Source of the DNA: a virus
Length of the DNA stretch: 64,000 bases
Virus record (IMG/VR): IMGVR_UViG_3300034031_000013
Span: 11,858-75,857 of that record
Direction: 5' to 3' (one strand)
A program made the translations under genes and the position numbers. The notes under the pieces were generated by a model. It saw nothing but the letters and a program-made list of their open reading frames with translations, was not told the DNA's origin and made no database searches. Positions 637-11,455 of this stretch are shown one piece after another (the stretch's first letter is position 1; every line of letters starts with the position of its first letter).

Positions 637-707
637 TGGGGGATAGTTTAATTAATAGAACGTTGGCTTCATGCCATCAGATGCAGGTTTGAATCCTGCT
701 CCCTCAA
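637..707 (+). tRNA. Degenerate tRNA-like gene; anticodon loop CT-TCA-TG (UCA)
   Basis: Acceptor TGGGGGA/TCCCTCA, D stem GTTT/GAAC, anticodon stem GTTGG/CCATC (one mismatch), T arm GCAGG-TTTGAAT-CCTGC; lacks D-loop GG, TTC and an encoded CCA. Confidence 0.65.
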
Positions 708-725
708 CTAACCAAATCAAGCACC

Positions 726-3107: not shown

Positions 3108-3302
3108 ATGACACCACAACAAGAATCCCTATTAGAGCAGGTACTTGTAGAAATGAGTGCCTTGAGAAAGGAAGTAACAACCATTAACAAGGCACTCGCT
3201 TACAAAACCACAGCCGTTAAAAAGCAAGAATCCGTTCAGGATATTGCCAATTCAATCATCGCCGAAACAATCCTCAAGGCGAAACAGAATCGCCATAACT
3301 AA
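3108..3302 (+). CDS. Hypothetical protein converging on the integrase
   Basis: 64 aa, last gene of + strand operon. Confidence 0.55.
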   Translation: MTPQQESLLEQVLVEMSALRKEVTTINKALAYKTTAVKKQESVQDIANSIIAETILKAKQNRHN

Positions 3303-4648
3303 TACACAACCCTCGGAGGTCTTGGCCTCGATGCTATATCGCACTTCAACTTTCGTAAATATGTTTCCGTTTGAATCGTTGTGGTGTGCCTGTTTTGGAT
3401 TGAAATCTGAAACAAATCCCATCCCGCTTTAAACGCTTCTATATTCCCTGTAGCCTTAAGTGAATATAAAGAGTGCTTGCCATCGTTGTAGATATTTAAG
3501 TCCTCTAAGGCGGCTTTAAATCGCGTAGAAAGCCCACTCCTATCTGCTCTCTTAAGCGAAGGAATCATATCGGAAGTAAAGACGTAATAGTTGTCGTACT
3601 TCTTATCATCGAAGTATTGCTCCCAACCGAGTTTTTCAAATTCAGCTACAAGTGCGGGGTCAAGGTAAAGCTCGGTAAATATCTTCTTCTTTGTCTTGGT
3701 GCTACCAACGGAAAGGGAAAAGTAACCCTCCTTATATCGTTTAACATTCTTAATCTTAATACGCCTTAATTCAGATATTCTGATAAACGTATAGAAAATT
3801 GTACGGCAGATATAAGCCATGAGCTTATTAGATATATAAGCCTTTCCAGGAACAACCCTAGCTATTACCCTTGCTTGATCGAAGTACTCAAGTATCTTCT
3901 TAAGTTGAACGGTAGAGAAAGGTTCGAATCGTTCACTGTCCTCTACAGACTCTTTACGGTCGATTGTAATGGATATATCTTTATAGTCATACCTACGTGC
4001 ATAATAAGCAAACATAGCCCTTATAGAGCCTAATTGATTGTTCCATGTTGTATCTTTTATTGTGCCGCTTGTATATCGTTCTTCAAAGAATTGTAAGATC
4101 GTATTCTTAGTTATTTTGTCTAAACGGGCAGTTAAACAGTCCTGCTCTCTGCAAAACTCCTTGAACAAGTTAAACAATGAATTATACGTACCCTCGGTAT
4201 TTTCTTTATTCTCGGGAGCGGCCTTTGATGGGTTGTCCTTTCCTGCCTTGATTTTCAACCACTGCTCAATAGCTTTTTCAAGTGTAGGTATTGGCGATGG
4301 GTCGTTGGCTTGGGAAAGTAGTTCTTCAATGGGTTTATCAACAAGAGGCGAAATAGCTACGCCTGTCTTTGGATCAACGCCAATAGATAATTGAGTCGCT
4401 ACCGCAATGCGAATACCCTCACCGTTCTTCTTACGAAGCCTAGTGTTAGATATGTGTTCTTTCTTGTTAAGAATTTTGGAATAGTACTTTTGAGGGAGCC
4501 ACTTGCCGTTATCGAAATCCCATATATGGTAGTAGATATACCAATCTCCTTTCTCGGGAGTTTTAAGAACGGGAGCGGCACGAAAGAGTTCTTTACCTTG
4601 GGGCAAGTAATAGTAGTTACCATCTACTTCAATTCGATTTAATTGCAT
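3299..4648 (-). CDS. int: Tyrosine recombinase / phage integrase
   Basis: N-terminal arm-binding-like region, SAM-like core; catalytic R (FIRISEL), K (TKTKK), YSLK in place of HxxR, and RH...TETY. Confidence 0.9.
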   Translation of the reverse strand: MQLNRIEVDGNYYYLPQGKELFRAAPVLKTPEKGDWYIYYHIWDFDNGKWLPQKYYSKILNKKEHISNTRLRKKNGEGIRIAVATQLSIGVDPKTGVAISPLVDKPIEELLSQANDPSPIPTLEKAIEQWLKIKAGKDNPSKAAPENKENTEGTYNSLFNLFKEFCREQDCLTARLDKITKNTILQFFEERYTSGTIKDTTWNNQLGSIRAMFAYYARRYDYKDISITIDRKESVEDSERFEPFSTVQLKKILEYFDQARVIARVVPGKAYISNKLMAYICRTIFYTFIRISELRRIKIKNVKRYKEGYFSLSVGSTKTKKKIFTELYLDPALVAEFEKLGWEQYFDDKKYDNYYVFTSDMIPSLKRADRSGLSTRFKAALEDLNIYNDGKHSLYSLKATGNIEAFKAGWDLFQISIQNRHTTTIQTETYLRKLKCDIASRPRPPRVVY

Positions 4649-10032: not shown

Positions 10033-10416
10033 ATGAACAACCCACAACTAGAGGAAGCAGCAAAGCAACGGTACGGCAACGACTTGCATTTATTCGGACA
10101 GCAGAGAGACGGATTTATTGAGGGTGCTAAATGGGCTCTCTCCCAATCAGAAGCAGAACCACCAACAGAAGACAAGCTTAAGGAAGCAGCAAAGGAGCTT
10201 GCGGAAAAAGCCGAATTTAATCCTTCAATTCCAATGGAAACCAGACTGAAAGCAGCCAAAGCTGTGTCGGCCAAGAAATCAGATATGCTAAGGGAAGCGT
10301 TTGAAGCCCTTTTGGATTCGCACCTATTTCATTACTTCGAGACATTAAAAGCCAGAGACATAGCAAAAGCGTTTTGGTACAAGAAAGCCGGATTACCCTT
10401 ACCAGAGAAAAGCTGA
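10033..10416 (+). CDS. Mosaic hypothetical protein
   Basis: LEEAAK...GFIEGAKWA motif typical of Bacteroidota phage early proteins. Confidence 0.65.
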   Translation: MNNPQLEEAAKQRYGNDLHLFGQQRDGFIEGAKWALSQSEAEPPTEDKLKEAAKELAEKAEFNPSIPMETRLKAAKAVSAKKSDMLREAFEALLDSHLFHYFETLKARDIAKAFWYKKAGLPLPEKS

Positions 10417-10424
10417 CAAAATCT

Positions 10425-10832
10425 TGTAATAAATTTATCAGATAATTATTACAGAATCTTATTTGACGGGTATTTGATAAATTATGATTAATCCGTGTTG
10501 AGAGCGATTTTAAAGCTTTTTCTTATTTGACTCGAAAACGGATTAACCAATTCCGCAGTCACTGACTGCAAAATCTTACAAGGATAATCGGCAACAATCC
10601 GATAACGTATTATAAAATTAACAAGTGCTGTAAGTTCGTTTGATTAATAAAACCCGCAAATATATCCTGAACGCTGAAAATACACAGCATACACCGCCAA
10701 ATCTTACTTTTTAAACGCCTTTTGGCGAACTATGAGCCGAATAGACATAACTATCGGCTCATTTACCGATAATCTCTTATATCGCCTAATTGACCGATAA
10801 TAACAAAGCCCCGACTATTTCTAGCGGGGCTT
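10425..10832. repeat. Array of about nine dissimilar inverted repeats (non-coding)
   Basis: Stems at 10425-10453, 10488-10546, 10555-10569, 10587-10603, 10673-10688, 10695-10727, 10732-10762, 10767-10784, 10806-10832. Confidence 0.75.
10801..10832 (-). terminator. Terminator of the late/lysis operon
   Basis: On - strand AAGCCCCG-ctagaaatagt-CGGGGCTT then TGTT. Confidence 0.7.
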
Positions 10833-10876
10833 CTAAATGACCTGTAGGCCGTTCTAATGGTAAACGTATAGGTACA

Positions 10877-11455
10877 TTACATTCTTCTCTTTATAAAATG
10901 CAAGGCCAGTAAAGCCAAGGCGATTCCCGTTGCCCAATTCCTTTGCATCTCCGCTCTATTCTTTCCTTTTAGAGCCTTATCCCTTTCCTGTTCTAATAAA
11001 TATTCCCTTGCCTTATCTACAATCTTCTTGGTAACTGTTGTTCTTATATAGGCTGTATCGCAAGGCTTGTTCTTTAAGGCTTGTATAGCACTTGCTAGGC
11101 TTTTAATAGTCTTATCCTGACTTCTTATTAGTTCATTGCAGTCCTTCTCGCTGTAGATGGTGTCTGCGACGATAATAGGGGCCTTCTGAGCGAGTTTAAG
11201 CAATGAATCAACTAATCTATCATGTTCGGTGTTGTCGGCCTTTACAGTGTCTTGTTTGATCTCGGTTGTTTCCTTTGGTGCAAAGTGTTTAGTGCATTCG
11301 CTTGCAAGCCATTGAGGATGCTTGACACATAGAACCTGGAATCTCTTCTGAGTTGTACAACCGCTACAGGTTATGGCAAGAAAATAAAAGAACACTAGCC
11401 CTATGATGTAGATGCCAAGTAAGGTGGTGGTTGGGTATCTGTTTAACTGTTTCAT
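10877..11455 (-). CDS. Putative spanin with unimolecular architecture
   Basis: N-terminal hydrophobic signal ending AITCSGC, coiled coil, C-terminal TM WATGIALALLALHFI then KRR; last gene of lysis operon. Confidence 0.6.
   Translation of the reverse strand: MKQLNRYPTTTLLGIYIIGLVFFYFLAITCSGCTTQKRFQVLCVKHPQWLASECTKHFAPKETTEIKQDTVKADNTEHDRLVDSLLKLAQKAPIIVADTIYSEKDCNELIRSQDKTIKSLASAIQALKNKPCDTAYIRTTVTKKIVDKAREYLLEQERDKALKGKNRAEMQRNWATGIALALLALHFIKRRM

What the first reader, a model, noticed from the sequence alone, without database searches (positions are those of the whole stretch)
10425..10832. Non-coding array of about nine unrelated palindromes: structured RNA or decoy-operator array
Seen: the 460 bp gap between the convergent early and late operons has no ORF but is tiled with different inverted repeats: TGTAATAA/TTATTACA (10425-10453), TTAATCCGT/ACGGATTAA (10488-10546), GCAGTCA-C-TGACTGC (10555-10569), ATCGG/CCGAT (10587-10603), GCTG/CAGC (10673-10688), CGCCAAA/TTTGGCG (10695-10727), ATGAGCCGA/TCGGCTCAT (10732-10762), CGAT/ATCG (10767-10784), then a terminator. 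An AATCTT motif recurs at about 10420, 10455, 10572 and 10700. Only the last stem has a U-tract, so termination does not explain the rest. The units do not repeat, so it is not CRISPR. Inference: either a long multi-hairpin RNA at the 3' end of the + strand operon (a few G-U pairs favour + strand), acting for example as a decoy for defence nucleases or sensors, or a cassette of dyad DNA sites resembling TetR/LysR/GntR-type operators that would titrate host regulators as the genome amplifies. I do not recognise either as a named system.
Basis: partly seen in the sequence, partly recalled or inferred. Interest (0 to 1): 0.8.

Follow-up and report, generated by a model that had tools for sequence, protein, structure and literature searches.

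The report
Phage spacer packed with borrowed palindromes
A 460-base gene-free spacer in a soil-crust phage holds the phage's densest cluster of DNA palindromes, and at least three of them are lone copies of palindromes that elsewhere accompany bacterial defence genes or recur in many other phages, which hints at protein-binding sites on DNA; what they do is still open.

Summary
Window 10417-10876 has no ORF in any code tried. It folds far better than shuffles on both strands (z -6.3 and -6.5). It is the top window of the 75.9-kb phage genome for perfect inverted repeats.

The units are neither private nor unrelated.

- 10732-10762 is a lone copy of a 31-nt palindrome (ATGAGCCGAWTA-N7-TAWTCGGCTCAT). 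In more than 120 bacterial loci across phyla it occurs as a pair at the promoter of DUF4172-Fic-wHTH genes, the SoFic defence family. CccR and SoFic are known to bind their own promoters. The phage has no fic gene, and 72 of 75 IMG/VR copies are also lone.
- 10752-10799 is a tandem pair of TATCGG-N8-CCGATA dyads. The same pair occurs in 36 other phage contigs, against 1-2 expected. Three of those contigs also carry the first motif.
- 10550-10574 matches palindromes that otherwise sit inside DUF1016/YhcG nuclease genes. It matches a co-resident biocrust contig over 27 nt exactly.
- 10806-10832 is a terminator, mainly for the minus strand.

There is no Rfam hit, no strand bias and no syntenic relatives, so covariation could not be tested. 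My best reading is a DNA-level cluster of dyad protein-binding sites (confidence 0.4). An inert scrap heap of recombination-prone palindromes is a close rival.

The parts
10417..10876 (.). Whole non-coding spacer between the end of the + strand early operon (stop at 10416) and the end of the - strand operon (stop at 10877). GC is 35%.
10425..10453 (.). Palindrome TGTAATAA-N13-TTATTACA. It is AT-only and lies 9 nt after the stop of the last + strand gene. It may be a weak terminator. No counterpart was found elsewhere.
10432..10483 (.). Inverted repeat AATTTATCA / TGATAAATT (9 bp, 34-nt loop). It overlaps the previous unit.
10457..10531 (+). Two exact copies of TCTTATTTGAC (10457-10467 and 10521-10531). 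These are the only copies in the genome.
10488..10546 (.). Inverted repeat TTAATCCGT-N41-ACGGATTAA. The same arms occur in IMG/VR only with other spacers (36, 45 or 46 nt), so no family could be assigned.
10550..10574 (.). 25-nt near-palindrome ATTCCGCAGTCA-C-TGACTGCAAAAT. It belongs to the palindrome class that otherwise lies inside DUF1016_N (YhcG nuclease) coding sequences. Here it is a lone, non-coding copy.
   Evidence: 27 nt identical, present twice in another biocrust contig
10586..10605 (.). Single dyad AATCGG-N7-CCGATAA, a third copy of the CCGATAA half-site pair.
   Evidence: ATCG[GC]-N6-10-[GC]CGAT occurs 4 times in 75.9 kb, 3 of them in this gap
10695..10727 (.). Inverted repeat CGCCAAA-N19-TTTGGCG. 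It contains one of the two AAATCTTAC copies (10571 and 10699). No counterpart was found.
10732..10762 (.). A-type palindrome ATGAGCCGAATAG-ACATAA-CTA-TCGGCTCAT. It is a lone copy of the operator-type palindrome of SoFic/CccR-like DUF4172-Fic-wHTH genes.
10752..10799 (.). B-type tandem dyads TATCGG-N8-CCGATAA (10752-10772) and TATCGC-N8-CCGATAA (10780-10800), with a 28-nt period. The first dyad shares its left arm with the right arm of the A-type palindrome.
10806..10832 (-). GC-rich hairpin AAGCCCCG-N11-CGGGGCTT. On the - strand it is followed by TGTTATTAT, which makes it the intrinsic terminator of the - strand operon, 44 nt after that operon's stop. The tail on the + strand is weaker.

Best explanation
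The spacer is not one structured RNA. It is a junction between two converging operons, built mostly from DNA palindromes of the kind that dimeric DNA-binding proteins recognise, and closed by a terminator.

**Shown**
- At least three units belong to palindrome families that recur in other genomes.
- 10732-10762 has the exact arms, spacing and W-rich inner stem of the palindrome that, as a pair, overlaps the promoter of SoFic-type Fic-wHTH genes in many bacterial phyla.
- 10752-10799 is the tandem TATCGG-N8-CCGATA pair that 36 other phage contigs carry.
- 10550-10574 is of the DUF1016-gene palindrome class.

**Inferred**
- On double-stranded phage DNA these sites are bound by proteins. A SoFic-like Fic dimer from the host would bind the A site: its half-sites lie 20 bp apart, about the 70 Angstrom spacing of the wHTH domains reported for CccR. 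An unidentified binder would occupy the CCGATAA dyads.
- As the genome replicates, the sites would then titrate or recruit these proteins. This would change the expression or activity of the host genes that carry the same palindromes, or block transcription running through the convergent junction.

The phage encodes no Fic and no detectable homologue of its wHTH domain. Any binder of the A site must therefore come from the host or from another element.
For: - The gap has the highest inverted-repeat density in the genome and no ORF.
- Both strands fold equally well, as expected of DNA-level symmetry.

**A-type palindrome**
- The pattern gives 88 IMG/VR stretches in 30 sequence clusters. About 19 clusters have exactly the 13-nt spacer, against about 1 per other spacer length.
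- It gives more than 120 bacterial loci. 75 of 120 have a DUF4172+Fic+DIP2311-like_C gene within 150 nt, and 88 of 120 have a second palindrome.
- In three bacterial genomes the motif occurs only at that one locus.
- These Fic proteins hit PADLOC model SoFic at E 7e-45.
- CccR represses its own promoter through a palindrome (PMC9755527). The SoFic dimer binds the 100 bp upstream of its own start codon (10.64898/2026.07.09.737422).
- Only 3 of 88 phage loci have a fic gene, and 72 of 75 phage copies are lone.

**B-type dyads**
- 36 IMG/VR stretches match, against 1-2 expected, in at least 12 unrelated contexts.
- The contigs behind L099, L137 and L139/L310 carry both A and B motifs.
- In the window the two motifs share an arm.

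**10550-10574 (DUF1016-type palindrome)**
- It is identical over 27 nt to two tandem copies in a different biocrust contig.
- It is identical over 20 nt to palindromes inside DUF1016 genes of two Bacteroidota genomes.
Against: - No binding was measured, and the operator role of the A-type palindrome is itself inferred from position and from two related proteins.
- CccR's published operator has a different sequence.
- The window copy is single, whereas real operators come in pairs, and its inner right arm lacks one base.
- The perfect-core operator is rare among hosts: 2 of 60 further Bacteroidota genomes.
- Four units (10425, 10432, 10488, 10695) have no counterpart elsewhere.
- Lone palindromes could be scars left by lost cargo cassettes.
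- In the lambdoid group the palindrome is present in only 9 of 79 Q-homologue loci, so it is lineage-specific there rather than anciently conserved.
- If DNA binding activates Fic, as it does for CbFic2 (PMC10628234), such a site would harm the phage rather than help it.
Confidence: 0.4

Rival explanations
1. Inert scrap. The convergent junction is a dispensable place where remnants of lost cargo genes and recombination-prone palindromes pile up. On this reading the Fic operator is what remains of a fic cassette, the 10550-10574 palindrome is what remains of a DUF1016 gene, and only the terminator still works.
For: - Phages do carry intact fic cassettes with paired operators (L108, L117, L152).
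- In the lambdoid contigs the sequences on either side of the palindrome are shuffled right at the palindrome, as at a recombination joint.
- The palindrome there is confined to one sub-lineage.
- There are weak coding echoes. LERPTGHLEAP resembles the Fic segment LDRPTVHFEAP (window 10857-10825 on the - strand, E about 3.6; 31 nt at 84%, E 0.03). KILQSVTAEL resembles DUF1016 (E 0.13-0.5).
- The window copy is single and slightly imperfect.
Against: - No fic or DUF1016 remnant reaches significance by blastx or by profile search. The DUF1016 profile against the gap gives E >= 0.7 among 42 peptides; Fic profiles against the phage's predicted proteins give E >= 0.25.
- Perfect lone palindromes outnumber intact cassettes 72 to 3 in phage contigs. 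That is odd for neutrally decaying 31-nt scars.
- The A and B motifs co-occur in four phages and interlock in the window.
- The half-sites sit at a regular spacing of about 14 nt from 10737 to 10800.
Confidence: 0.3
2. RNA-level element. The hairpins form in the 3' untranslated tail of the early transcript, or in a small antisense RNA started at the -7-like box TATATTTG on the - strand (10664-10657). They would stabilise, terminate or process the RNA.
For: - Folding z is about -6.
- The early operon has no strong terminator before 10806, so its transcript probably runs through the hairpins.
- Many lone A-type copies in other phages lie 3-20 nt after a stop codon, and about half are followed by T-rich sequence.
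- In nine phage contigs the B-type dyads lie between converging genes, with a T-run after the second dyad.
Against: - No Rfam match.
- There is no strand preference, and the G-U pairs are on the strand opposite to the early transcript.
- The stem sequences, rather than just the pairing, are conserved across phyla, which points to sequence-specific recognition.
- Only the last hairpin has a usable T-tract in the window.
- Local 120-nt windows in the gap are mostly unexceptional; one (from 10744) ranks among the genome's 40 best-folding (z -2.7).
Confidence: 0.15
3. A cis site of the phage's own DNA metabolism: a replication origin, or a partition or packaging site, built from repeated CCGATAA half-sites next to an AT-rich stretch.
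For: - Seven CCGAWA-type half-sites lie in 220 bp, five of them in alternating orientation about 14 nt apart.
- The left part of the gap is 70-82% AT.
- The site lies at the end of the early operon, whose genes are mostly unannotated.
Against: - There are no DnaA boxes.
- No replication initiator was recognised next to the gap.
- The B-type pair sits directly in front of start codons in other phages, as an operator would.
- The gap is far from the start of the long minus-strand (presumed structural) operon, where packaging genes would be expected; no terminase gene was identified.
Confidence: 0.1

Closest known systems
Auto-operators of Fic-wHTH proteins: CccR of Yersinia pseudotuberculosis (PMC9755527) and SoFic of Shewanella oneidensis (bioRxiv 10.64898/2026.07.09.737422). 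SoFic is listed as a defence system in PADLOC.
   Same: - It is a palindrome with half-sites about two helical turns apart.
- In bacteria it overlaps the promoter of a DUF4172-Fic-wHTH gene.
- The window's 10732-10762 has the same 9-nt arms and the same 13-nt spacer.
   Different: - The copy is lone rather than paired, and there is no fic gene anywhere in the phage.
- The sequence differs from the published CccR operator AGATAATCAT-N26-ATGATAATCT.
- Binding of this palindrome by any Fic protein has not been measured.
Orphan palindromes of DUF1016/YhcG nuclease genes
   Same: - The near-palindrome has 7-bp perfect core arms, an ATT...AAT frame and a one-base centre.
- It is identical over 20-27 nt to copies inside DUF1016_N coding sequence.
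   Different: - Here it is non-coding, single and in a phage.
- What the palindrome does inside DUF1016 genes is unknown.
Paired operators of phage and toxin-antitoxin repressors, for example the inverted repeats bound by AbiEi (PMC7319586)
   Same: - The B-type unit is two similar 20-bp dyads at a fixed 28-nt period.
- In some phages it lies directly in front of a start codon.
   Different: - No cognate repressor was identified.
- In the window and in ten other contigs the pair lies between converging genes, with no gene downstream.
Intrinsic (Rho-independent) terminators at convergent operon junctions
   Same: 10806-10832 is a GC-rich hairpin with a T-rich tail on the - strand, 44 nt after a stop codon.
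   Different: This accounts for only 27 of the 460 bases. The other stems lack T-tracts.

Membership tests
Operator palindrome of SoFic/CccR-like DUF4172-Fic-wHTH genes (A-type) | 31-nt palindrome (A)TGAGCCGA-WTA-N7-TAW-TCGGCTCA(T) with exactly 13 nt between the 9-nt arms | tested here: met
   Window 10732-10762 has both 9-nt arms and the 13-nt spacer. The inner right arm reads CTA instead of TAW+1, leaving a one-base bulge.
Operator palindrome of SoFic/CccR-like DUF4172-Fic-wHTH genes (A-type) | Occurs as two palindromes 34 or 44-45 nt apart, start to start | tested here: not met
   The best second palindrome within 60 nt has 6 of 14 core mismatches, which is background. 88 of 120 bacterial loci have one with <=4 mismatches.
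Operator palindrome of SoFic/CccR-like DUF4172-Fic-wHTH genes (A-type) | Lies within 150 nt of a DUF4172-Fic-wHTH gene | tested here: not met
   There is no Fic-like sequence in the 75.9-kb genome by blastx at E<1 or among the predicted proteins by profile search. 75 of 120 bacterial loci have the gene.
Operator palindrome of SoFic/CccR-like DUF4172-Fic-wHTH genes (A-type) | Bound by the wHTH dimer of the cognate Fic protein | not testable with these tools
   This needs EMSA, footprinting or ChIP. Only CccR and SoFic binding to their own promoters is published (PMC9755527; 10.64898/2026.07.09.737422).
B-type tandem dyads of phages (defined here) | Two dyads TATCGG-N8-CCGATA(A) at a 28-nt period | tested here: met
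   10752-10772 fits perfectly. 10780-10800 reads TATCGC in place of TATCGG. The whole matches the pattern that finds 36 IMG/VR stretches.
Palindromes of DUF1016/YhcG genes | Near-perfect palindrome with a short loop, ATT..AAT frame, sequence shared with known members | tested here: met
   ATTCCGCAGTCACTGACTGC is identical to L296. GCAGTCACTGACTGCAAAAT is identical to the reverse strand of L297. 27 nt are identical to a biocrust contig.
Palindromes of DUF1016/YhcG genes | Located inside or just before a DUF1016_N coding sequence | tested here: not met
   A profile built from 18 DUF1016 proteins finds nothing in the six frames of the gap (E >= 0.7).
Structured non-coding RNA (Rfam families) | Match to a covariance model, or covariation in homologues | tested here: not met
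   No Rfam match has an E-value below 3 inside the gap. Covariation could not be tested for lack of homologous intervals.
Intrinsic terminator | GC-rich stem followed by a T-tract, downstream of a stop codon | tested here: met
   This holds only for 10806-10832, and mainly on the - strand. The consensus scan did not call it because the loop is 11 nt.
Replication origin | DnaA boxes or iterons beside an AT-rich unwinding region and an initiator gene | tested here: inconclusive
   There are no DnaA boxes. Repeated half-sites and AT-rich DNA are present. No initiator was recognised.
CRISPR array | Identical direct repeats separated by unique spacers | tested here: not met
   Only two-copy direct repeats of 9-22 nt are present.

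The most novel reading that the evidence does not exclude
The phage carries a bank of mimic sites for DNA-binding defence proteins of its hosts. These would be a full binding site for a SoFic-type Fic dimer, a copy of the palindrome tied to DUF1016 nucleases, and dyads for a third binder. The sites would soak up or misdirect those proteins as the genome multiplies. The many lone Fic-operator palindromes in other phages (72 of 75 copies) would be the same trick. The reverse is also open: SoFic-type systems may sense phages because phage DNA titrates their auto-repressor.
Probability: 0.2. Interest if true: 0.85.

Novelty: new variant of a known kind. Interest (0 to 1): 0.6.

Why it matters
**If the sites are bound as proposed**, this would be a counter-defence (or a trigger of defence) made of DNA sites alone, with no protein or RNA product. 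It would link three things that have not been connected:
- the conserved promoter palindrome of the SoFic defence family, whose exact operator has not been published;
- the puzzling palindromes of DUF1016 nuclease genes;
- a dyad pair shared by dozens of uncultured phages.

**Even if the spacer is scrap**, three by-products can be tested at once:
- a cross-phylum consensus operator for SoFic-type Fic proteins;
- the finding that phages mostly carry it as lone copies;
- a hypervariable perfect palindrome inside the N-domain coding region of many DUF1016 genes.

Tried and rejected
- **Rfam.** On the gap (E up to 10) and on nine loci carrying the palindrome, nothing relevant was found.
- **Other genetic codes.** Reading the gap with TGA=W or TAG=Q gives only junk frames.
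- **Isolated phages (INPHARED).** No DNA match to the gap or its flanks. No match to the lambdoid palindrome region either.
- **Syntenic relatives.**
  - The 192-aa neighbour is an orphan.
  - The 127-aa neighbour gives only N-terminal hits.
  - 80 loci found through the exonuclease keep neither the synteny nor the gap sequence, and none has an A or B motif.
- **Sequencing runs.** The same phage, with identical sequence, is present in several biocrust and soil runs. No variants were seen and no RNA holder is listed.
- **Metagenome scan** with the 19-mer of the 10550-10574 palindrome: one chance hit inside a dehydrogenase gene.
- **Tandem pairs of the 10550-10574 palindrome** in IMG/VR: none.
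- **TTAATCCGT...ACGGATTAA** in IMG/VR: 11 hits, none with the window's 41-nt spacer.
- **GCAGTCACTGACTGC** in 401 Bacteroidota genomes: 2 hits. I first took these for chance; their flanks later showed they are real relatives.
- **B pattern** in 151 Bacteroidota genomes: none.
- **Decayed-gene tests.** blastx and profile searches for Fic and DUF1016 remnants found nothing significant.
- **Literature search** for the arm sequences returned only primers.
- **Bacteroidota-type promoter** (TTTG-N-TAnnTTTG): no full match in the gap, only a lone -7-like box on the - strand.
- **Selection test in the lambdoid group.** It was uninformative because only 9 of 79 Q-homologue loci have the palindrome.
Full report
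**Setting**

The window is bases 11858-75857 of a 75,857-bp IMG/VR phage record with a 127-bp terminal repeat. The phage has a tyrosine integrase at 3299-4648. Identical sequence turns up in several biocrust and soil metagenome runs.

A + strand block of small, mostly unannotated genes ends at 10416. A - strand block ends at 10877; it holds a 192-aa orphan, a 207-aa protein with a weak dGTP-diphosphohydrolase N-domain match, and an exonuclease of phrog_704. The finding is the 460-bp spacer between these two blocks.

Yes.
- The spacer has no ORF in table 11, and none worth the name with TGA=W or TAG=Q.
- As RNA it folds at -113.5 kcal/mol on the + strand and -127.0 on the - strand. Shuffles give -81.9 and -97.4, so z is -6.3 and -6.5.
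- Native sequence of this genome folds better than shuffles in general. Against the genome's own 460-nt windows, with GC regressed out, the spacer is only at z = -2.1, and 7 of 328 windows are lower.
- The sharper statistic is the count of perfect inverted repeats with stem >=8 and loop <=45. The spacer has five, the genome mean is 0.31, and this is the top window of the genome.

- The units are not all different. There are three ATCGG...CCGAT dyads, two copies of TCTTATTTGAC and two of AAATCTTAC.
- G-U pairs favour the - strand, 25 against 9.

**No relatives to compare**

The flanking 192-aa protein is unique in a 5.8-billion-protein search. Isolated phages have no similar DNA. Eighty viral loci found through the exonuclease share neither the spacer sequence nor the gene order. 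The other runs that hold the phage hold it unchanged.

**The palindrome at 10732-10762 (A-type)**

I scanned IMG/VR for ATGAGCCGA-N8-20-TCGGCTCAT.
- The scan gave 88 stretches in 30 sequence clusters. About 19 clusters have exactly the 13-nt spacer, against roughly one cluster per other spacer length.
- The spacer sequence varies but extends the palindrome with A-T pairs.
They come from Bacteroidota, Gammaproteobacteria, Nitrospirota and Verrucomicrobiota.
- In bacteria it is nearly always one of two similar palindromes, 34 or 44-45 nt apart start to start.
- In Bacteroidota the second palindrome begins inside a TAnnTTTG box and often ends in the start codon of the next gene.
- In 75 of 120 loci that gene lies within 150 nt. 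It encodes a protein of 365-385 aa with DUF4172, Fic and a DIP2311-like C-terminal winged-helix domain.
- These proteins match the PADLOC model of the SoFic defence system at E 7e-45 and 1e-42.
- In three bacterial genomes the core motif occurs only at that locus.
- In a further sample, 2 of 60 Bacteroidota genomes have it.

Published work fits an operator role.
- CccR, a protein of the same architecture, represses its own promoter through a palindrome with widely spaced half-sites (PMC9755527).
- Dimeric SoFic binds specifically within 100 bp upstream of its own start codon (bioRxiv 10.64898/2026.07.09.737422).
- CbFic2 binds DNA, and DNA stimulates its activity (PMC10628234).
- I did not find the consensus (A)TGAGCCGAWTA-N7-TAWTCGGCTCA(T) in the literature.

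The phage copy is an orphan.
- The genome has no Fic-like sequence.
- There is no second palindrome beside the window copy.
- This is typical of phages. Only 3 of 88 viral loci have a fic gene, and 72 of 75 viral copies with the 13-nt spacer are lone.
- The largest viral group is 51 lambdoid contigs, where the palindrome lies about 112 nt after the stop of a Q-antiterminator homologue.
- That is lineage-specific: only 9 of 79 Q-homologue loci have it.

**The dyads at 10752-10799 (B-type)**

A BLAST of the spacer against the loci already collected found a 57-nt match in L099 and another in L137. Alignment showed a shared unit: two dyads TATCGG-N8-CCGATAA, 28 nt apart.
- The pattern TATCGG-N8-CCGATAA-N7-TATCG finds 36 viral stretches where one or two are expected.
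- They fall in at least a dozen unrelated contexts.
- Some lie directly in front of a start codon. Others, as in the window, lie between converging genes. One of these is L322, a contig that shares the exonuclease at 61% identity.
- Three contigs carry both A and B motifs (L099, L137, and the contig of L139/L310).
- In the window the two interlock. The right arm of A is the left arm of the first B dyad, which explains the missing base in the A copy. CCGAWA-type half-sites alternate in orientation about every 14 nt from 10737 to 10800.
- A third dyad lies at 10586-10605. The pattern ATCG[GC]-N6-10-[GC]CGAT occurs four times in the genome, three of them here.
- The A and B half-sites share only a CCGA..TA core, so I do not claim that one protein binds both.
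- I found no candidate binder.

**The palindrome at 10550-10574**

Laying other runs on the spacer showed a 5-kb contig of a different genome that holds window 10548-10574 twice, 58 nt apart; one copy is exact over 27 nt.
- The two Bacteroidota genomes that contain GCAGTCACTGACTGC, out of 401, looked like chance at first. Their flanks showed otherwise.
- L296 shares 20 nt with the window. L297 has two perfect 25-nt palindromes of the same type, 54 nt apart.
- In L296 the copies lie inside the DUF1016_N coding sequence of an intact YhcG-type PDDEXK nuclease gene (Pfam). In L297 they lie in a stop-broken frame that reads like DUF1016_N by eye and was not scanned with Pfam.
- I then sampled the family. 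22 of 41 Bacteroidota genomes have DUF1016_N genes. 14 of 30 loci carry a perfect short-loop palindrome of 17-43 nt, a different sequence in almost every gene, 110-340 nt into the N-domain.
- The spacer itself is not a recognisable DUF1016 remnant. A profile of 18 family members finds nothing in its six frames (E >= 0.7).

**The remaining units**

- TGTAATAA/TTATTACA, AATTTATCA/TGATAAATT and CGCCAAA/TTTGGCG have no counterparts in the 2.7 Mb of loci fetched.
- TTAATCCGT/ACGGATTAA occurs in IMG/VR only with other spacers.
- The hairpin at 10806-10832 has a T-rich tail on the - strand and is best read as the terminator of the - strand operon.

**What it most likely is**

The evidence points away from a single long structured RNA.
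- The symmetry is perfect and independent of strand.
- Arm sequences, not just pairing, are conserved across phyla.
- One unit is an operator-type site by position and by analogy with two studied proteins.
- Another has the paired-dyad layout of repressor operators.

I therefore read the spacer as a DNA-level cluster of binding sites for dimeric proteins, plus a terminator. What the binding achieves is inference. It could be titration or recruitment of a host SoFic-type repressor and of unknown partners, or a roadblock at the convergent junction. Confidence is 0.4.

**The main rival**

The junction may simply collect scars of lost cargo cassettes and palindromes that recombine easily (0.3).
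- In favour: the single, slightly imperfect A copy; the flanks shuffled at the palindrome in the lambdoid contigs; and two weak coding echoes.
- Against: the 72-to-3 excess of perfect lone copies over intact cassettes in phages; the co-occurrence and interlocking of the A and B motifs; and the regular half-site spacing.

An RNA-level role (0.15) and a replication or partition site (0.1) remain possible.

**Novelty**

The parts are of known kinds: operators, dyads and a terminator. Neither the cross-phylum operator consensus of SoFic-type genes nor its lone copies in phages turned up in the literature searches I ran. I did not search the literature for the B-type dyad family or for the combination of all three in one phage spacer, and I know of no description of either. 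I file the finding as a new variant of a known kind.

The most novel reading still open is a bank of mimic sites aimed at DNA-binding defence proteins. Its mirror image is that such defence systems sense phage DNA through titration of their own repressor.

Noticed in passing
L296:1440-1520; L297:1440-1520; L427, L430-L437, L440, L443, L445-L447, L450 (about 110-340 nt after the start of the DUF1016_N match): Many DUF1016/YhcG nuclease genes of Bacteroidota carry a perfect palindrome of 17-43 nt with a 0-1 nt centre inside the N-domain coding sequence. The sequence differs in almost every gene, for example ATTTTGCAGACACTGTCTGCAAAAT, ATTCGTCACGCATTGCGTGACGAAT and AATTGTGTCGACACTGTCGACACAATT. 14 of 30 loci have one. 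Its function is unknown.
   Followed up: partly
L176-L295 (bacterial loci), e.g. L208:4789-4862, L243:3256-3343: SoFic-type DUF4172-Fic-wHTH genes in several phyla share a promoter with two 31-nt palindromes, (A)TGAGCCGAWTA-N7-TAWTCGGCTCA(T). The palindromes are 34 nt apart in Pseudomonas-like genomes and 44-45 nt apart in others. In Bacteroidota the second palindrome starts inside the TAnnTTTG box and ends at the start codon.
   Followed up: yes
L098:1606-1636 and 50 related IMG/VR contigs; L333-L412: A lone Fic-type palindrome lies about 112 nt after the stop of a Q-antiterminator homologue, before the lysis genes, in one lambdoid sub-lineage (9 of 79 Q-homologue loci). The sequences on either side are reshuffled right at the palindrome.
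   Followed up: partly
L322:3502-4610: This phage contig shares the exonuclease at 61% identity. It has an ORF with a TnpB-like C-terminal zinc-ribbon motif (read by eye, not family-scanned) ending 28 nt before the B-type dyad pair. The pair lies between that ORF and the converging exonuclease block.
   Followed up: no
L413-L422: TTAATCCGT-N36-ACGGATTAA occurs in four unrelated viral contexts at exactly 36 nt spacing, where about one or fewer is expected. This may be another palindrome family. The window's copy has a 41-nt spacer.
   Followed up: no
window 10664-10657 (- strand): A lone Bacteroidota-type -7 box, TATATTTG, points leftwards. A transcript started there would be antisense to the 3' end of the early operon. 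No -33 TTTG lies at the right distance.
   Followed up: no
window 637-708: ARAGORN calls a tRNA-like gene with anticodon UCA (labelled tRNA-SeC). The genes in the window were all read with TGA as a stop.
   Followed up: no
L298, L302, L313, L319 (one shared context): In this context the B pattern lies directly after sequence resembling the 3' part of tRNA genes (read by eye; ARAGORN not run), and only one full TATCGG-N8-CCGATA dyad is present. It may be a false member of the B family.
   Followed up: no
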